A stretch of DNA of 63,566 nucleotides, counting the filler, from Asterionella formosa (taxonomy: Eukaryota): the NCBI GenBank assembly GCA_002256025.1. It is 12 parts of 12 records of this genome, joined end to end, with 100 filler letters (N's around TTAATTAATTAA, not from the genome) between each part and the next. Parts side by side here need not be neighbours in the genome. Positions count along the whole stretch, not along the records: positions 43,659 to 44,750 come from NKIB01004389.1; 11 more parts are not named here. One strand, 5' to 3'. Position numbers and translations under genes: made by a program. How positions within the stretch are numbered: position 1 is the stretch's first letter; every line of letters begins with the position of its first letter. Shown here piece after piece: positions 35,273-63,566 of this stretch. The notes beneath the pieces are model-generated. The model saw nothing but the letters and a program-made list of their open reading frames with translations, did no database searches and was not told the origin of the DNA.

Positions 35273-37148
35273 TGGTCCGAATGCTGCATAGGGTGAGGAG
35301 GATGGGGGGGGGGAAGTTGCTCGCTCCAGATAATGGGTCGATGAAAGGAACAAACGGTACTATCAATAGAGTTACTATACACTCCAGAATGTTCAATTTA
35401 CCTATCATCTTATATATTACGTTCCAATGTCCACTCTTAATGATAAGAAATGATTAAAATTTTTACTATTCGTCCGAGCGGATTTACCCCATAAAGGAAG
35501 TAACAATTTTACTAGTCAACGTCCTTAGAGACCCACATTCTTGCCATAATGCTGTTCCAAAGGTATGTATGGTGTATTAAAGGTAGGTTAGCTGGGATAA
35601 GCTAATGTTGTCTACGTACTACCTTATTAGCTACCGGTAGAATCGGCACCCACCGCCAAGAAATAGTTACCACAATCGTCAACAGAAAAACATTGGGAAG
35701 CAAAATAACATTACCTGATGGCTAAGAATGCTATGTACCGGCATGAACACCGGTAAGTACACCATGTCTAGCTACCGATATGTAACGGAAAGAATAGGCT
35801 TAACGACTAGTGAATACCAGTAGTTATTGGTCCTGTTGCCACCTGCTTCATCCTCTCTTGTAGTCTAGTAGCTGGTCTGATTCCCTGAAGTCCGGAGCTA
35901 GAACTACATGCCGGTTTTATGAAGTAACAGCCAATTATACTTCTTATATTTACACAAAAATGCACTAAAACAAAACGCATGTGGTATGAATGTTATGTTA
36001 TTTCTTTTTGGGTGCCCCTCCAGGGTCCTCATGACGAGGATTACCAAGTCGCTCCACTTTTTTTGGTGCAAGATTCCTCGTATGATAACGGCACGGTATA
36101 GGCTACAACGAAATCATAAGCGACATGACACCATGGATTTGTGAACGTTCTAGATACTTATCGTATGTAACATGATAACCCCGGTACGTGGTAAGAAATG
36201 TAGGCGGCGACCCGCTACATATACCGGTATATAGCTAGGTATGTGTAACCACCGATTAATACTGGTGTGGAGGAGAGATGTTGCGGAATTTTCGATTCCC
36301 GAACAGTTTATGGAGATCATGAGATGAGAAGCGTCGTTGGTGGGGGCCAAACGACTCTGGACGCTCGCAGGTCATAATTGCTGGGGCAGGGAGAAGCGCG
36401 GAAGCANNNNNNNNNNNNNNNNNNNNNNNNNNNNNNNNNNNNNNNNNNNNTTAATTAATTAANNNNNNNNNNNNNNNNNNNNNNNNNNNNNNNNNNNNNN
36501 NNNNNNAGGCGGTGGAGAGGCTCAAACTTCAATTGGAGCAGGATCAGGAAAAAATTAATAATGTAATGCCATATTGGTAAATACCAATATAGAATAGCTT
36601 GTACTGATGTACCATGCGTCGTACCATCCATACAAGCAAATGCAATTATACTGCTGCTGTGGCCGCTGCTGTTGCTTTCCCATCAGGCAACATACAGTAA
36701 ATTCTACACACGAGTGTACCACAGGACGGAATCCAGAATCCGTTCGTATGCCATCCTTGATGTCGAAATCGGCAGAACGGCGTGATAAATAAAATTTTTA
36801 ATTTTTATCATACACATACATATATATGCCGGTATTATGTTCAAGGAGCATGGTGATATGGCACACTACCTGTAACCTGGTACCCTGCAAGTTGCGGTCA
36901 TTTTGCCGAAAATGGAACGCGGCGCCGGCAAGCACTCATATTTTTACTCCCCGCTGATATTACTTTCGCGCTGGCCAATATATTTCATTATTATCAAAAT
37001 CTAATTTTTAAGAATAATTTTCCGAACTTGCTACGAATTTTCCGAACTTTCTACGATTAGGGGGGTTTCCCCCCAATCACAATTTTGAGTTTCAAGACTC
37101 CTTATTCCAGAAATCTCCTAGTTTATGTGCATTTCTATTTCGGTATAA

Positions 37149-37328
37149 GGCCCCGTCTTACGGCGCCCGAATTACGAAGATTCAGTCGCCCGGATACCTG
37201 TTGGGCGTTTAATCTTCGTATTTTCGTCCCTTGCGGACTAAATAACTCGCAAATCCCCCCCGATTACGAAGATTAATCTTCGTTTGCCCGAATATTTCGA
37301 GGGTCATCCCCGATATTGACCCAATCTT
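37149..37328. mobile_element. Probable DNA-transposon end with ATTACGAAGATT subterminal repeats
   Basis: Begins TAA|GGCCCCGT (PIF/Harbinger-like terminus). It has direct and inverted ACGAAGATT copies, including the palindrome ACGAAGATTAATCTTCGT. No matching second TIR is seen. Confidence 0.4.
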
Positions 37329-37508
37329 CGGCACTTGAGTTCCAGGTGGGTACACACGGAGCTGCGCTGAGGAAACACCTTGAAGATTGTCACCACATTC
37401 AATCTTCACAGCTTTCTTCAAGTCAGCAATGTCATCATTCTGATTCAAAGTAACTTTAAAGGGATCTAGGGCTGCGTTTCCAAGAAACAACTGGAACCAA
37501 ACCTTCAT
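37329..37508 (-). pseudogene. Crinkler/CR-type ubiquitin-like header domain, truncated after codon 60
   Basis: 49/60 aa identical to the gene at 43671. Similarity stops abruptly at 37329, where a repeat-rich segment begins. Confidence 0.7.
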
Positions 37509-37834
37509 TGTTTTCTAACTGATGGTGGTGGGTACCTGGTTGGGAGTACAAGACAATGGAAGTGAGAGGAGAGGAGAGGAGGAGAGGAGAACCTTCTGNN
37601 NNNNNNNNNNNNNNNNNNNNNNNNNNNNNNNNNNNNNNNNNNTTAATTAATTAANNNNNNNNNNNNNNNNNNNNNNNNNNNNNNNNNNNNNNNNNNNNTG
37701 TTTTTATATGTTTTTATGAATGTGTGATTGTATTGTATGTATGCGAATCATTACTTTTGTTAATTTTAGCCACCATGTATTGACCTTGACATCGTTCTTC
37801 CCATTTTTTCAGTTGTCGACTTTCATTATTTGCC

Positions 37835-42690: not shown

Positions 42691-43670
42691 CTCGTCGCTG
42701 CTTTTCGTTATTGCTGGAAACGACGAGGAAGCCTTGCTTATTTGCTATGGTATTTCAAATGCCTATTTTGTTCCAGACACACTCTATTCGTTCTGAGATT
42801 TGATATTGTGGTCGATTTGATACCTTGTCGACGTTTCACAAAAGTATAGGTAAATAAGATTTGTTGTCGATATCTAATGTAGTGTTTCAGCAATGCATGA
42901 ATAATTTTTGGGACAAAAGCATTCACGTTGTTTCAGTAACGCACCAGCCAGTATCAGGTAAAAGACACATTTTACATATTAGGGAGTATTTTGTATATTA
43001 TATTAGTGCCGCAATGACGTACGTCGACAAGTTCTAGCATACCGGTACAATTTTCGATCCCAGCCAATGTTCTTGACACTTGTACACGTCAAAAGGTCTT
43101 GCTATACAACTATTTTTTTAGTTTCTTTTTTACTTAGAAGCTACCATATATTATTGCTTAACCCTCGGTCCGGAGAAATGGTATGTTGATCATCCGCATT
43201 TCGCTCATACCGGTGCATTCATCCACTGATATTGAGTCATGCAAAAGGCAGGCATTCCGCCCAACTCCCTGATGGTGTGATCGATGATTTTTTCGCTCAG
43301 CTATAAACAAGTATCCAATGCTACTGGTACTAAAACATGTACGTAGCTATATATTGATAGGTGGAACTGCTCCACCAACATCTAAGACGCCGTTTACGGT
43401 ACTTTTTCGAATTTATGTATAAAGTAGAGCACATCATTATGATAGCTAAATGTATTATTAATACCTGGTACTCGAAAATGACTGAGTAGAAAAGTGACTC
43501 ATCATGGTCTCGCTTGCGGATTCCATCATAGCATTTGGACTGCACACTGCTTGGGAGCNNNNNNNNNNNNNNNNNNNNNNNNNNNNNNNNNNNNNNNNNN
43601 NNTTAATTAATTAANNNNNNNNNNNNNNNNNNNNNNNNNNNNNNNNNNNNNNNNNNNNAGGTAGAAAACA

Positions 43671-44750
43671 ATGAAGGTTTGGTTCCAGTTGTTTCTTGGA
43701 AACGCAGGACTATTGCCAGTTTATGTCACGTTGAATCAGAATGATGTCATTGCTGACTTGATGGAAGCTGTGAAGATTAAATGTGGTGACGATCTTCAAG
43801 GTGTTTCCTCAGCGCGGCTCCGTGTGTGCCCACCTGGAACTCAAGTGCCGGTTCCTGAGGGAGCTGATGATCCAACCATGGATCCTGGAGGTCTGGTTGT
43901 TCATCTGAATTGGGGAACTAGCAGCAAGAATGCGTTCGTGATCGTGATCCTGATCGTGGTCATCCAACCTGATATTGGTACGTGTTTTGATCTCATGGAA
44001 TACCTTCTATTGTATTGTAGGTCACAGCTCCTAATACTCACGTATCATTTCGTATCATTTATCCCATACAAATACTCGCTACTGTTGAAAAGACCAAGGA
44101 ACGACGAAACGCCAGAAACAAAATGATGAGCAGGAGGAAGCCTCGACCTTAATATTGCTTATAAAGGAGAAGCTCAACGTTCATTTCAAGCGCTTGAAGG
44201 TGGATCAGGAAAAGCGAATCGTTCCACAGACAATGCATATCTACAAGATTGATCGAAACGAGCTTCCTTTTGAACCTACTTTATCTGATTCTGACGATTC
44301 TTTACCTCCTTCTGATCCCATTGTTCCCGTCTTTTCCCCCGAAGATAGTTACTGGATGAAAGGGCTCCGAAAAGTGCGGTTTAATGATTGCAAGAGACGG
44401 GGAATCTTATATCGGCCTGAAATTGTGAAGGATATGATGAAAGCGGTTGAAGATGCCTTCAATATAGGTGGTCCGGCTGGAATCATGATTAAGGGACCGC
44501 AGGGAATTGGCAAGTCGCACTCACTTGTTAACTTGATTCGTACGCTGCAATATGACAGTAGCTGCAAGTACCTCGTAACTGTCATTCCAGACTGTCAACA
44601 TTGGAACGACATTGACCATTTGTACACTGCGATCTGCAGTTCATTTGGTACTTCATTATCGGCTCTCTCATGGTCGAGCAGCCCAGGTTCGGTTTCGCAA
44701 GAGGAACACCTCAAAACCTTTGTCAATGCGATTGACTTGATTCTTCGACG
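43671..44750 (+). CDS. Crinkler/CR-type protein: Ubl header + P-loop NTPase; intron 43978-44092; 3'-truncated
   Basis: Header V.L..ND.IADL..AVK......L....A.L.V and terminal hydrophobic strand VIVILIVVIQP. The in-frame splice leads to KRQK and then the Walker A motif GIMIKGPQGIGKSHSL. Confidence 0.72.
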
Positions 44751-61676: not shown

Positions 61677-62476
61677 GGCTTCCAGTGACCGTTGTGTTGT
61701 GTGATGTCAATACAATGCGACAAGTCTCCCGCCTCTGTGAACTTGGCCGAGTATTTGGCAATGAATGCGGTTCGTTCTGATTGTGCTATTTTTCTTCTAA
61801 CAAATGAACCACTTGAAATTCTGGCTGCTATTCAAGGAGACTCAAGGAAACAACAATGTAGTATACTGGTTGAGCGATGCACGGCGAATGAGTGAGGGTT
61901 AACAAAATGAAAAATGGAGACACGAGTAAAAGAAAATGGCTCCCATCACTGCTGTGGCGGGGCGTCGTGATCATCGCCTTCAATATATATACCGGTATCA
62001 TGAGAAAAATCTGTTCATACATATTTATTTATCGTATAATTCAGAGTCCTGGCCTCCCCCCTGAGGTTGTGGTGCTGGCTTCCCCCATGTACATTTTTTT
62101 CGTGGTGGCACCAAACACCCAATTATTTTCTAGACATTGACAAAGTAACGTACTACCCTGGTACCAGTAAAAAACTGCTGTGACCCACTAAAAAATATTT
62201 GGAACCGCTGTGACCCACTGAACAGGAGAAAAACACGGTTTGACCCTCCCAAATGCAGATTTGTTAATTTTAAAACTTCGATCCCAATCTTGAGCATGTA
62301 CGCTTTAAGGCTATGTCATTAGATATAAGTTTATAGCAATTGGTTTCTCCTAAAATATTGGTTGAAAAGTGCAATNNNNNNNNNNNNNNNNNNNNNNNNN
62401 NNNNNNNNNNNNNNNNNNNTTAATTAATTAANNNNNNNNNNNNNNNNNNNNNNNNNNNNNNNNNNNNNNNNNNNNA

Positions 62477-63256
<780 letters not shown>

Positions 63257-63275
<19 letters not shown>

Positions 63276-63418
63276 CGCTCCTGCTGATGCTCGGGCAGCT
63301 TGTTGGACAGGATGGCGATGAAGATGAGGTTGTCGACCCCCAGCACCACTTCGAGCGCAATCAGGGTCAGCAACGCCAGCCAGGCGGCCGGATCGGAGAA
63401 CAGTGCGATAAGTTCCAT
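63257..63418 (-). CDS. terC: TerC-family membrane protein N-terminal fragment
   Basis: [38 protein letters not shown] ribosome-binding-like site upstream. Confidence 0.85.
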
Positions 63419-63494
63419 AACCCCATTCCTGCCGCAATCGGGCGCGTCCTGCAACGTCCGGTGCAGGGCAAGGGCAGGAGATGGCCGGAAAAAT

Positions 63495-63566
63495 TGGTGG
63501 ACCCGTCGGGGCTCGAACCCGAGACCTACAGATTAAAAGTCCGCCGCTCTACCAACTGAGCTACGG
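63495..63566 (-). tRNA. tRNA-Lys(UUU), bacterial type with encoded CCA, 5' ~4 nt missing
   Basis: Minus strand reads CCGTAGCTCAGTTGGTAGAGCGGCGGACTTTTAATCTGTAGGTCTCGGGTTCGAGCCCCGACGGGTCCACCA, with D-arm, TTT anticodon and T-arm. Confidence 0.93.

What the first reader, a model, noticed from the sequence alone, without database searches (positions are those of the whole stretch)
43671..44750. Crinkler/CR-type effector architecture (Ubl header + P-loop NTPase) in a diatom
Seen: after removing intron 43978-44092 the protein has a ~100-aa header ending in a hydrophobic strand, a KRQK basic patch and a Walker A domain (GPQGIGKS). Known: Crinkler-RHS (CR) proteins couple Ubl headers to NTPase + restriction-endonuclease-fold toxin modules; they are best studied in oomycete and chytrid pathogens but also occur in free-living eukaryotes. 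Inference: a polymorphic toxin or innate-defence family in an alga, possibly acting against parasites, viruses or competitors. The C-terminal module is lost at the contig end.
Basis: partly seen in the sequence, partly recalled or inferred. Interest (0 to 1): 0.8.

Follow-up and report, generated by a model that had tools for sequence, protein, structure and literature searches.

The report
Crinkler-type header-NTPase gene in a diatom
A short diatom contig carries the front half of an expressed, spliced gene that joins a ubiquitin-like "header" of the kind known from Crinkler effectors to an ATPase, and whose intact sister copies end in a restriction-enzyme-like domain.

Summary
The finding sits on its own 1092-bp contig (43659-44750). 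ATG is at 43671, and the GT..AG intron 43978-44092 is spliced out in RNA contigs of two runs and in none of the DNA run. KRQK lies at 44107-44118 and Walker A GPQGIGKS at 44494-44517. The frame runs off the contig end.

The 102-aa header models as a ubiquitin-like fold. Its nearest language-model neighbours are Crinkler (PF20147) clusters, but it fails Pfam's threshold. The body is an ORC/Cdc6/STAND-like NTPase. Intact relatives (for example locus L004) continue into a domain that models confidently as a restriction-endonuclease fold, with E..D..QxH in place of ExK. That domain's nearest neighbours are oomycete, trypanosomatid (RHS) and Mucoromycota clusters.

So the Crinkler/RHS-type architecture is supported. 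A toxin or defence role is not tested.

New points:
- The NTPase-nuclease body is a large diatom family that mostly lacks the header.
- The header is a symmetric cassette exon, repeated 2-3 times in tandem.
- The header also heads a neighbouring HECT ligase.
- The intron is more conserved than the header exon.
- The window's own copy may stop before the nuclease core.

The scan had not noted this family before.

The parts
43659..43670 (+). 5' leader with an in-frame TAG (43662-43664), so 43671 is the first possible start on this contig
   Evidence: the same leader type stands before the first header unit in L007 and before the second window copy
43671..43977 (+). Exon 1: 102-aa ubiquitin-like, Crinkler-like header (MKVWFQLFLG ... 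AFVIVILIVVIQPDI), phase-1 end
43978..44092 (+). 115-nt GT..AG intron, removed in RNA; 97.6% mean identity among 7 units, higher than the exon
   Evidence: no Rfam match and no unusual fold
44093..44750 (+). Exon 2, open at the contig end: charged linker, helical N-region, first half of the P-loop NTPase
   Evidence: 100% identical to P0003 over the overlap
44107..44118 (+). KRQK basic patch (a nuclear-localisation role is inferred, not tested)
   Evidence: several relatives have basic N-termini
44494..44517 (+). Walker A GPQGIGKS
   Evidence: G132, G137, K138 and S139 (P0035 numbering) are invariant in 68 relatives
37329..37520 (-). Second header copy on another 1092-bp contig: same leader and the first 60 codons, then a break after PPGTQVP into unrelated sequence
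   Evidence: 90.1% nucleotide identity over 192 nt; 81.7% over 60 aa

Best explanation
This is the 5' part of an expressed, spliced diatom gene of the Crinkler/RHS (CR) type. Exon 1 encodes a divergent Crinkler-like ubiquitin-fold header. Exon 2 encodes a short charged linker with a KRQK patch, then an ORC/Cdc6/STAND-like P-loop NTPase. Intact paralogues continue through a helical region into a C-terminal restriction-endonuclease-fold domain.

Shown here: the gene model and its splicing, the Ubl fold, the NTPase motifs, and the REase fold in relatives. Also shown: the header is a portable module. It is a symmetric phase-1/phase-1 cassette exon, it occurs 1 to 3 times in tandem before the NTPase body, and it also heads a neighbouring HECT ubiquitin ligase.

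Inferred: the protein works inside the diatom cell, probably in the nucleus, as an NTP-switched enzyme that binds or cuts nucleic acid. Its role would lie in genetic conflict, either defence against viruses and parasites or selfish spread. The NTPase would gate the nuclease domain, as proposed for CR proteins. The header would act as an exchangeable regulatory or trafficking tag, not as a conjugatable ubiquitin. The highly conserved intron plus linker would give the homology tract at which headers and bodies are reshuffled.
For: Gene model and expression: intron joint in RNA runs X15 and X18 and not in DNA run X1; spliced database forms P0016 and P0017.

Header: Ubl model and matches. 28 of 30 nearest Atlas clusters are of the PF20147 set, whose top clusters carry the family on 33-48% of members. 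8 of 22 relatives give PF20147 at E 0.0011-0.094. The family consensus ends in IVVAP, and the window has IVVIQP, at the place of the CRN HVLVxxP end motif.

Body: Walker A and Walker B residue D227 are invariant in 68 sequences. AAA_22 scores 27.8-28.7 bits against a cut-off of 27 on full-length P0035 and P0003.

Nuclease domain: model pLDDT 85, pTM 0.84. Best VIA Z is 7.1, to the R.BspD6I small subunit (rmsd 4.0, 126 aligned) and to Card1; about 18 of the top 19 rows are PD-(D/E)xK nucleases. Conserved residues sit at the canonical helix/strand-2/strand-3 places: E56 in 65 of 69, D124 in 69 of 69, Q137 in 65 of 69, H139 in 69 of 69. Atlas neighbours of this domain are Oomycota (0.96) and Euglenozoa clusters, one with RHSP on 14% of members. 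By structure the neighbours are Bacillariophyta, Euglenozoa and Mucoromycota clusters at TM 0.66-0.68.

Whole architecture in one intact frame: L004 492-2723.

Portability: header then NTPase in L003, L004, L005, L010 and L011; header then HECT in L006, L008, L009 and L012; tandem headers in L001 (3), L007 (2), L005 (2) and P0037. Back-joints 44144->43667 or 44135->43667 appear in three RNA runs. Cassette exon lengths are 375, 381, 375 and 393 nt, all multiples of 3.

Intron 97.6% against header exon 88.4% mean identity over 21 pairs.
Against: The header does not reach Pfam's PF20147 cut-off: P0001 gives no hit at E<=10, and the best relative scores 20.1 against 24.6 bits. The Atlas gives no alignment or E-value. 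The literal LxLFLAK motif is absent.

Of 118 stored relatives with the Walker A motif, only 3 (P0016, P0017, P0037) carry the header. The header HMM hits none of the other body relatives, so most of the diatom family is header-less.

The nuclease motif is QxH, not (D/E)xK, so activity is uncertain. Fold scores are middling: Z 5-7, and Foldseek finds no match at E<=1e-3.

P0003, the 100%-identical database form of the window's gene, ends at 419 aa (...VVTNHG), before the nuclease core. This copy may therefore be truncated.

Several copies in metagenome loci are broken across frames.

No PADLOC defence family matches. Nothing here shows localisation, secretion, a nucleic-acid target or an infection response. 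The contig, and L005, could be mis-joined through the conserved intron.
Confidence: 0.6

Rival explanations
1. Exported toxin or effector: the header carries the NTPase-nuclease out of the diatom and into competitors, grazers or parasites, as proposed for oomycete Crinklers.
For: The header is of the Crinkler type. CRN N-termini are reported as sufficient for secretion and translocation (section 11 read). Header variation is near-neutral to diversifying: mean dN 0.119 against dS 0.145, with 8 of 21 pairs above 1.
Against: No signal peptide or secretion evidence was obtained. Residues 2-9 model as strand 1 of the Ubl fold. Most diatom relatives have no header, and several start with basic patches. 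The same header sits on a HECT ligase, an intracellular enzyme.
Confidence: 0.12
2. RHS-like nuclear housekeeping factor: the body is a chromatin or transcription protein with a degenerate nuclease fold that is no longer catalytic, as trypanosome RHS proteins serve RNA polymerase II transcription.
For: The nuclease motif is QxH instead of ExK in nearly all of 69 sequences. Atlas neighbours include Euglenozoa clusters, one with RHSP. RHS proteins act in Pol II transcription (abstract of PMC6393297). The family is wide and conserved, with at least 120 clusters.
Against: E56, D124, H139 and H143 are still near-invariant at the active-site places, which suggests a retained metal site. The family is multi-copy with decayed members and tandem arrays, which is unlike a core factor.
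Confidence: 0.2
3. Selfish or transposon-derived multi-copy gene with no host function; the header cassette spreads by local duplication only.
For: Tandem copies and broken copies (L004 second copy; L006, L010 and L011 pieces in different frames). The second window copy is interrupted. CR C-terminal modules are linked to transposons in prokaryotes (section read). The contigs are short and repeat-like.
Against: No transposase, terminal repeats or target duplications were found around the copies examined. Motifs are kept across relatives only 29-44% identical to the reference sequence. The gene is expressed and correctly spliced.
Confidence: 0.2
4. The header is an ordinary ubiquitin-system Ubl domain that belongs to the neighbouring HECT ligase and was copied onto the NTPase gene. 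Its likeness to Crinkler headers is convergent or too weak to count.
For: The header-HECT gene lies directly downstream of an NTPase gene in L006, L008 and L009. PF20147 is never reached at threshold. HECT is not among the CR C-terminal domains listed in the section read.
Against: No relative hits ubiquitin or any other Ubl Pfam family at E<=0.1. 28 of 30 Atlas neighbours are of the Crinkler set. There is no C-terminal Gly-Gly. The family ends in the hydrophobic IVVAP-type strand, like the CRN HVLVxxP.
Confidence: 0.15
5. The contig comes from an oomycete or chytrid parasite, not from the alga.
For: Crinklers are typical of such parasites. The contig is short and unlinked.
Against: GC is 0.448, within 0.397-0.473 of 13 of the 14 contigs. 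Body relatives are named from Amphora coffeaeformis and Attheya sp., and an Atlas structural neighbour cluster is mostly Bacillariophyta. A second header copy lies on another contig. Runs labelled organism A hold 0.88-0.93 of its words.
Confidence: 0.03

Closest known systems
Oomycete Crinkler (CRN) effectors with NTPase + HTH + REase C-termini (Phytophthora), as reclassified by Zhang et al. 2016
   Same: A ubiquitin-fold N-terminal header ending in a hydrophobic V-V-x-x-P-type strand, followed by a P-loop NTPase and a restriction-endonuclease-fold domain. Modular exchange occurs at the header/body junction. A basic, nuclear-type patch is present.
   Different: No literal LxLFLAK (here L-x-V-Y/C-P-P-G-T). 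Below the Pfam PF20147 threshold. The junction is an intron, and the header is a cassette exon repeated in tandem. The host is a photosynthetic, free-living diatom. The nuclease motif is QxH. Zhang et al. 2016 itself could not be read here. Its content is taken from passages and section 11 of PMC5289972 and passages of PMC6131194.
CRN-like proteins of Rhizophagus and other Mucoromycota (PF20147 clusters)
   Same: They are the nearest clusters to the header by language-model features (0.93-0.94). A Mucoromycota cluster is among the nearest structural neighbours of the nuclease domain at TM 0.66.
   Different: No alignment or E-value links them.
Trypanosomatid retrotransposon hot spot (RHS) proteins
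   Same: The C-terminal domain's nearest neighbours include Euglenozoa clusters, one carrying PF07999 RHSP on 14% of members. Both are multi-copy families with decayed members.
   Different: RHS proteins have other N-termini and a reported role in Pol II transcription (abstract). No Pfam RHSP match to the diatom proteins was seen.
Prokaryotic STAND NTPase-nuclease defence proteins (e.g. Avs3)
   Same: The working logic of an NTPase switch joined to a PD-(D/E)xK effector. Avs3 appears in the fold list at Z 4.3. Weak nSTAND and NACHT Pfam matches are seen.
   Different: No PADLOC family matches. The domain order and the sensor parts differ. This is an analogy, not membership.
AACRN/AACRNL: Ubl header + ADP-ribosyltransferase Crinkler-like proteins of free-living animals (PMC12957317)
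   Same: A Crinkler-type Ubl header on a toxin-like enzyme in non-pathogenic eukaryotes (passages read).
   Different: The cargo differs (ART, not NTPase-nuclease), and the headers there are described as degenerate. Diatoms are not mentioned in that paper (0 occurrences).

Membership tests
CR (Crinkler/RHS-type) proteins | N-terminal header with a ubiquitin-like fold | tested here: met
   Model from 25 sequences, pLDDT 72.4, beta-beta-alpha-beta...beta order. All listed Foldseek rows are ubiquitin or Ubl proteins, best E 1.8e-3, target-normalised TM up to 0.75.
CR (Crinkler/RHS-type) proteins | Header matches Pfam PF20147 (Crinkler N-terminal domain) at the curated cut-off | tested here: not met
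   P0001 gives no family at E<=10. 8 of 22 relatives hit PF20147 only below the cut-off, best 20.1 against 24.6 bits. Supporting lead only: 28 of 30 Atlas neighbours are of the PF20147 set.
CR (Crinkler/RHS-type) proteins | LxLFLAK motif on strand 3 and HVLVxxP-type motif closing the header (motifs as given in PMC5289972) | tested here: inconclusive
   Strand 3 reads RLRVCPPGT (family consensus LxVYPPGT), so not LxLFLAK. The header ends LIVVIQP (family consensus IVVAP), which resembles HVLVxxP. The resemblance was judged by eye, with no statistic.
CR (Crinkler/RHS-type) proteins | C-terminal P-loop NTPase followed by a REase-superfamily domain | tested here: met
   In the window only the first half of the NTPase is present. 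In intact relatives (L004 492-2723, P0035) both domains are present. REase fold.
CR (Crinkler/RHS-type) proteins | C-terminal module homologous to those of oomycete CRN or trypanosomatid RHS proteins | tested here: inconclusive
   The nearest Atlas clusters of residues 440-634 of P0035 are Oomycota (0.96) and Euglenozoa (0.95, 0.93). Structural neighbours reach TM 0.66-0.68. No alignment or E-value is given, and no CRN or RHS sequences were on hand.
CR (Crinkler/RHS-type) proteins | One header type on different C-terminal cargo (modularity) | tested here: met
   The same header (70-97% identical) precedes the NTPase-nuclease body and a HECT ligase. Only two cargo types were seen. The cargo of the more distant header relatives is unknown.
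P-loop NTPase, AAA+/STAND-like (Pfam AAA_22, NACHT, nSTAND; orc1/cdc6) | Walker A and Walker B motifs and a family match at threshold | tested here: met
   GPQGIGKS is present, and the D of hhhhDQ is invariant in 68 sequences. AAA_22 scores 28.7 (P0003) and 27.8 (P0035) against a cut-off of 27. The window fragment alone scores 23.4, below the cut-off. The sub-class (STAND or ORC/Cdc6-like) is not resolved.
PD-(D/E)xK restriction-endonuclease superfamily | alpha-beta-beta-beta-alpha-beta core fold | tested here: met
   Model pLDDT 85. Best VIA Z is 7.1, with rmsd 4.0 over 126 residues for R.BspD6I and 3.6 over 130 for Card1. The top list is almost all REases. Z is middling, and Foldseek finds no match at E<=1e-3.
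PD-(D/E)xK restriction-endonuclease superfamily | Catalytic D ... (D/E)xK signature | tested here: not met
   D124 is invariant, but strand 3 carries Q137-x-H139 (65 of 69 and 69 of 69). E56 on the helix and H143 are also conserved. This is a variant site of unknown activity.
Ubiquitin and conjugatable Ubls | C-terminal Gly-Gly and a match to PF00240 | tested here: not met
   The header ends ...VIQPDID without GG. No ubiquitin-family hit was found in 22 relatives at E<=0.1. The profile finds no PDB sequence hit.

The most novel reading that the evidence does not exclude
Diatoms run an exon-shuffling version of the Crinkler system. A Crinkler-type ubiquitin-fold header is packaged as a symmetric cassette exon, flanked by a homogenised intron and linker. 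This unit is copied in tandem to give poly-header proteins and is moved between cargo genes (NTPase-nuclease, HECT ligase). The underlying, so far unannotated, diatom-wide NTPase-nuclease family is an innate immune or genome-conflict system of phytoplankton that answers to viruses or to oomycete and chytrid parasites.
Probability: 0.25. Interest if true: 0.75.

Novelty: new member of a known kind. Interest (0 to 1): 0.5.

Why it matters
Crinkler/RHS-type proteins are best known as pathogen effectors. An early CRN pipeline used the diatoms Phaeodactylum and Thalassiosira as negative controls and found none (PMC3607596, passage read). In my three literature searches and the passages I read, no paper describes Crinkler-type genes in diatoms. 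The primary survey (Zhang et al. 2016) and its supplements could not be seen, so diatoms may be listed there.

If the reading holds, a major phytoplankton group owns a large unannotated NTPase-nuclease family of this class. One freshwater lineage has coupled that family to a portable Crinkler-like header by way of a cassette exon. This gives a tractable, non-pathogen setting to ask what the header does, and a candidate immune or conflict system to test in diatom-virus and diatom-parasite work.

Tried and rejected
- Own-genome search: no genome is held, so genome-wide copy number and C-terminal diversity could not be counted.
- Zhang et al. 2016 is not held, by DOI or by PMC id.
A 9-sequence alignment worked.
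- Of the 15 loci returned, L013 and L014 have no header by HMM and L015 is marginal. These three were dropped as chance matches. Their ORFs, and the ORFs beside L002 and L010, gave nothing relevant in Pfam.
- Profile of the body against PDB sequences: best hit mS29 at E 0.013, nothing significant.
- Header profile against PDB sequences: nothing below E 1.4.
- PADLOC: no family for 6 proteins.
- NCBIfam: only weak orc1/cdc6 matches far below the cut-off.
- Intron as a functional RNA: no Rfam match at E<=1 and fold z-score +1.05.
- Depth in the DNA run cannot be read as copy number (the tool's own warning).
- Three phmmer hits (P0074, P0088, P0096) are long bacterial surface-repeat proteins with other Pfam families. 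I treated them as false positives.
- Earlier notes of this scan hold nothing on this family.
- A binding prediction between header and HECT or NTPase was not run, because no binding claim is made.
- The helical region between the NTPase and the nuclease (expected HTH) was not modelled.
Full report
WHAT THE WINDOW IS. The 63,566-base window is not one molecule. It is 14 contigs joined by N runs and TTAATTAATTAA linkers, and nine of them are 1091 or 1092 bp long. The finding occupies one such contig, 43659-44750, with GC 0.448. The other contigs have GC 0.397-0.473, except the last at 0.626. No whole genome is held for this window.

THE OBSERVATION. The sequence shows ATG at 43671 with an in-frame TAG nine bases upstream. 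An open frame runs to 43977, followed by GT at 43978 and AG at 44091-44092, and a second frame opens at 44093 and runs off the contig. Exon 1 is 307 nt, so the intron is phase 1 and the join gives ...VIQPDI-D-QGTTKRQKQNDEQEE.... KRQK is at 44107-44118 and GPQGIGKS at 44494-44517.

The splice is supported by data, not only by consensus. RNA contigs of two runs from two studies (X15, X18) carry a joint that skips exactly these 115 bases with GT..AG ends. RNA run X16 and DNA run X1 carry no such joint. The intron bins have depth 0 in X15 and 50.7 in X18, against 74-82 in X1. The caveat is one contig per run, with 26 letters on the shorter side.

Two database proteins, P0016 (99% identical in the header) and P0017, read ...VIQPDIDQGATKRQK... 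straight through into the NTPase. P0070 and P0077 are the unspliced read-through of the same intron in paralogues. The stretch is held by 20 listed runs of 11 studies, six of them RNA. Most are freshwater or lake metagenomes, plus runs labelled organism A.

THE HEADER. Pfam gives nothing for the 102-aa header, even at E<=10. A phmmer scan of 1.84 billion representatives gives 28 hits at E<=1e-3. Three of these are long bacterial surface-repeat proteins with unrelated Pfam families, which I discard. The other 25 are short proteins that align over the whole header, with the consensus VWFQLxxG..V.L...I.DL..AVK.KC..L..V....L.VYPPGT.VPVP.G...DPG..V....T..K...IVVAP. Many end a few residues later in ..GE or run into intron-like sequence, so they look like first exons read through.

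Of 22 hits scanned, 8 give PF20147 (Crinkler N-terminal domain) at E 0.0011-0.094, all below the 24.6-bit cut-off. None gives ubiquitin or any other Ubl family. In the ESM Atlas, 28 of the 30 nearest clusters belong to the PF20147 set. The top score is 0.94 with 211 of 256 features shared. The family is carried by 33-48% of the members of the top clusters, which are mostly Mucoromycota.

A model built on the 25-sequence alignment (pLDDT 72.4) has the beta-beta-alpha-beta...beta order. Every listed Foldseek row is ubiquitin, ISG15, NEDD8, Rub1 or another Ubl. The best E is 1.8e-3 and the target-normalised TM reaches 0.75. There is no C-terminal Gly-Gly.

I conclude that this is a divergent Crinkler-like Ubl header. 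The fold is shown, kinship to PF20147 is likely, and membership at Pfam's standard is not met. The CRN hallmark motifs, as given in PMC5289972, have positional counterparts here: LxVYPPGT on strand 3 in place of LxLFLAK, and LIVVIQP or IVVAP at the end in place of HVLVxxP. That is a resemblance, not a test.

THE BODY. The exon-2 product is 100% identical over its overlap to P0003 (419 aa). It is 32-90% identical to twelve longer proteins. A profile of 12 full-length members finds 120 clusters, all at E<=1e-67, among the 8000 candidates scored. Two are named by EukProt as Amphora coffeaeformis and Attheya sp., and several lie on contigs of 1-3 Mb. Typical members are about 570 aa.

The NTPase has Walker A GxxGxGKS and a Walker B of the form hhhhDQxN, invariant in 68 sequences. 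Pfam gives AAA_22 just at threshold on full-length members, with weaker AAA_16, NACHT, ATPase_2 and nSTAND1/3/5 matches. NCBIfam gives weak orc1/cdc6.

No library names the last 200 or so residues. I modelled them from the database fragment P0026 with 68 relatives, giving pLDDT 85 and pTM 0.84. The topology is helix 48-66, strands 87-92, 111-115, 125-129 and 132-138, helix 147-157, strand 165-172, helix 175-184 and strand 192-198. Foldseek finds nothing at E<=1e-3, but its weak list is dominated by Can2, Nt.BspD6I, EcoO109I, OkrAI, BamHI and similar nucleases. The exhaustive VIA search gives best Z 7.1, to the R.BspD6I small subunit (rmsd 4.0, 126 aligned) and to Card1. Then come N.BspD6I, McrC, LlaBIII, Can1, SgrAI, FokI, Bse634I, NgoMIV, NucS and Cfr10I. 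About 18 of the first 19 rows are PD-(D/E)xK nucleases. The Z values are middling; the consistency of the list is what carries the call.

The conserved polar residues fall where the superfamily puts its active site. E56 is on the helix (65 of 69), D124 is at the start of the second core strand (69 of 69), and Q137-x-H139 is on the third (65 and 69 of 69), followed by H143. The signature is therefore E..D..QxH, not ExK, and activity is open.

The Atlas neighbours of this domain are an Oomycota cluster (0.96) and Euglenozoa clusters (0.95, 0.93; one with RHSP on 14% of members). By structure they are Bacillariophyta, Euglenozoa and Mucoromycota clusters (TM 0.66-0.68), ahead of AlwI, DUF4143, PDDEXK_4, Mrr and HinfI clusters at TM 0.41-0.51. 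That is the phyletic pattern of the Crinkler/RHS class, but the Atlas offers no alignment. Locus L004 holds the whole architecture in one open frame: header, intron, NTPase and nuclease, 492-2723.

(1) Most of the diatom family is header-less. Of 118 stored proteins with the Walker A motif, only P0016, P0017 and P0037 carry the header. The header HMM hits no other body relative. Most start about 90 residues before Walker A, some with basic patches. The two transcriptome-derived named proteins are among the header-less ones. Missed upstream exons in genomic gene models cannot be excluded.

(2) The header is portable. Among 12 true header loci from metagenomes:
- five have header then NTPase (L003, L004, L005, L010, L011);
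- four have header fused directly to a HECT ligase (L006, L008, L009, L012);
- three hold headers only (L001, L002, L007).
In the 911-aa protein P0045, HECT scores 5.6e-85. In L006, L008 and L009 the header-HECT gene lies just downstream of an NTPase gene.

(3) Headers occur in tandem: three in L001, two in L007, two before the NTPase in L005, and two in the single frame of P0037. RNA contigs of three runs join the start of exon 2 (44144 or 44135) back to 43667 through 30-39 extra letters. The internal unit (linker + exonised leader + header) is 375, 381, 375 or 393 nt, always a multiple of three, and lies between phase-1 introns. It is a symmetric cassette exon. In L005 the internal header starts with Ile, not Met.

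(4) Across 7 complete units (21 pairs), the intron is 97.6% identical on average (94.8-100%) and the start of exon 2 is 94.3%. The header exon is only 88.4% (82.3-95.0%). For the header exon, dN is 0.119 and dS 0.145, and 8 of 21 pairs have dN/dS above 1. The intron has no Rfam match and no unusual fold. Variation in the header looks mosaic, for example GDDLQGVSSAR against ENSLSAIDSAQ. L005 has the window's NTPase (99% identical) behind a different header (77% identical). I read the conserved intron plus linker as a homogenised tract at which headers and bodies recombine, the counterpart of the HVLVVVP recombination site of oomycete CRNs. Mis-assembly through this repeat could mimic the swap.

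(5) Many copies are decayed, with pieces in different frames in L004 (second copy), L006, L010 and L011. The window's own gene, judged by P0003 and its 22-member cluster, ends at ...VVTNHG, before the nuclease core. The sister form P0035 (634 aa) is complete.

HOW IT PROBABLY WORKS. The architecture is shown. The mechanism is inferred, by analogy with what Zhang et al. proposed for CR proteins, as summarised in PMC5289972 section 11. There the nuclease-fold domain acts on nucleic acid, the NTPase regulates it, and the header is an exchangeable targeting or regulatory module.

Three facts favour an intracellular, probably nuclear, role in genetic conflict over export. Most diatom relatives lack a header. 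Several relatives and the window protein carry basic patches. The header is shared with an intracellular HECT ligase.

The rivals are an exported toxin, an RHS-like chromatin or transcription factor with a dead nuclease (RHS function: abstract of PMC6393297), a purely selfish repeat, and a borrowed HECT Ubl. They are listed with their tests. Contamination by a parasite is unlikely.

COMPARISON AND NOVELTY. The closest known class is the CR proteins with the common NTPase + REase C-terminus. CR proteins are already reported from free-living eukaryotes: chlorophytes, land plants, amoebozoans and animals, according to passages of PMC12957317 and PMC5289972. So this is a new member of a known kind. 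In the library I found no description of Crinkler-type genes in diatoms (searches; passages read). One study used two diatom genomes as CRN-negative controls. The primary survey and its supplements were not available, so prior listing of diatoms cannot be excluded. The cassette-exon, tandem-header organisation, the header-HECT fusion and the QxH site were not mentioned in anything I read.

VERDICT. The architectural interpretation is supported. The toxin or defence function is untested. Interest is moderate.

Noticed in passing
window 1-63566: The window is a chain of 14 contigs separated by N runs and TTAATTAATTAA linkers. Nine are 1091 or 1092 bp long, so neighbourhood across linkers means nothing.
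   Followed up: yes
window 36507-37598 (- strand): A second copy of the header leader and its first 60 codons (37520-37329) breaks off after PPGTQVP into unrelated sequence that is not repeated elsewhere in the window. This looks like an insertion, a rearrangement or an assembly break.
   Followed up: partly
window 43978-44092 and units in L001, L003, L004, L005, L007, L010: The 115-nt intron is more conserved among paralogous units (97.6%) than the header exon (88.4%) or the exon's synonymous sites (dS 0.145). No RNA family or stable fold explains this.
   Followed up: partly
L006 2560-4026, L008 1123-3006, L012; protein P0045: The HECT ligase that carries the same header also has several copies of a roughly 45-residue repeat (FRVTVPE..PGQEFQI..GG..VR..CP...PG..L.I.VP) that no Pfam family names.
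   Followed up: no
protein P0022 (186 aa): The first 27-30 residues of the header (of the second window copy's type) are joined to a Utp25 C-terminal domain. This is either a chimeric transcript assembly or a splice variant.
   Followed up: no
protein P0097 (870 aa): One family member carries two NTPase modules in tandem (AAA_22 and AAA_16 each in two stretches).
   Followed up: no
window 62476-63566: The last contig has GC 0.626, far above the rest. It holds a 370-aa open frame that looks bacterial and, by eye, like an amino-acid kinase. It may be a contaminant contig; no family search was run.
   Followed up: no
L004 3010-4530: Directly downstream of the intact header-NTPase-nuclease gene lies a second, header-less copy broken into at least four frames, with the conserved Q of the nuclease site changed to L.
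   Followed up: partly
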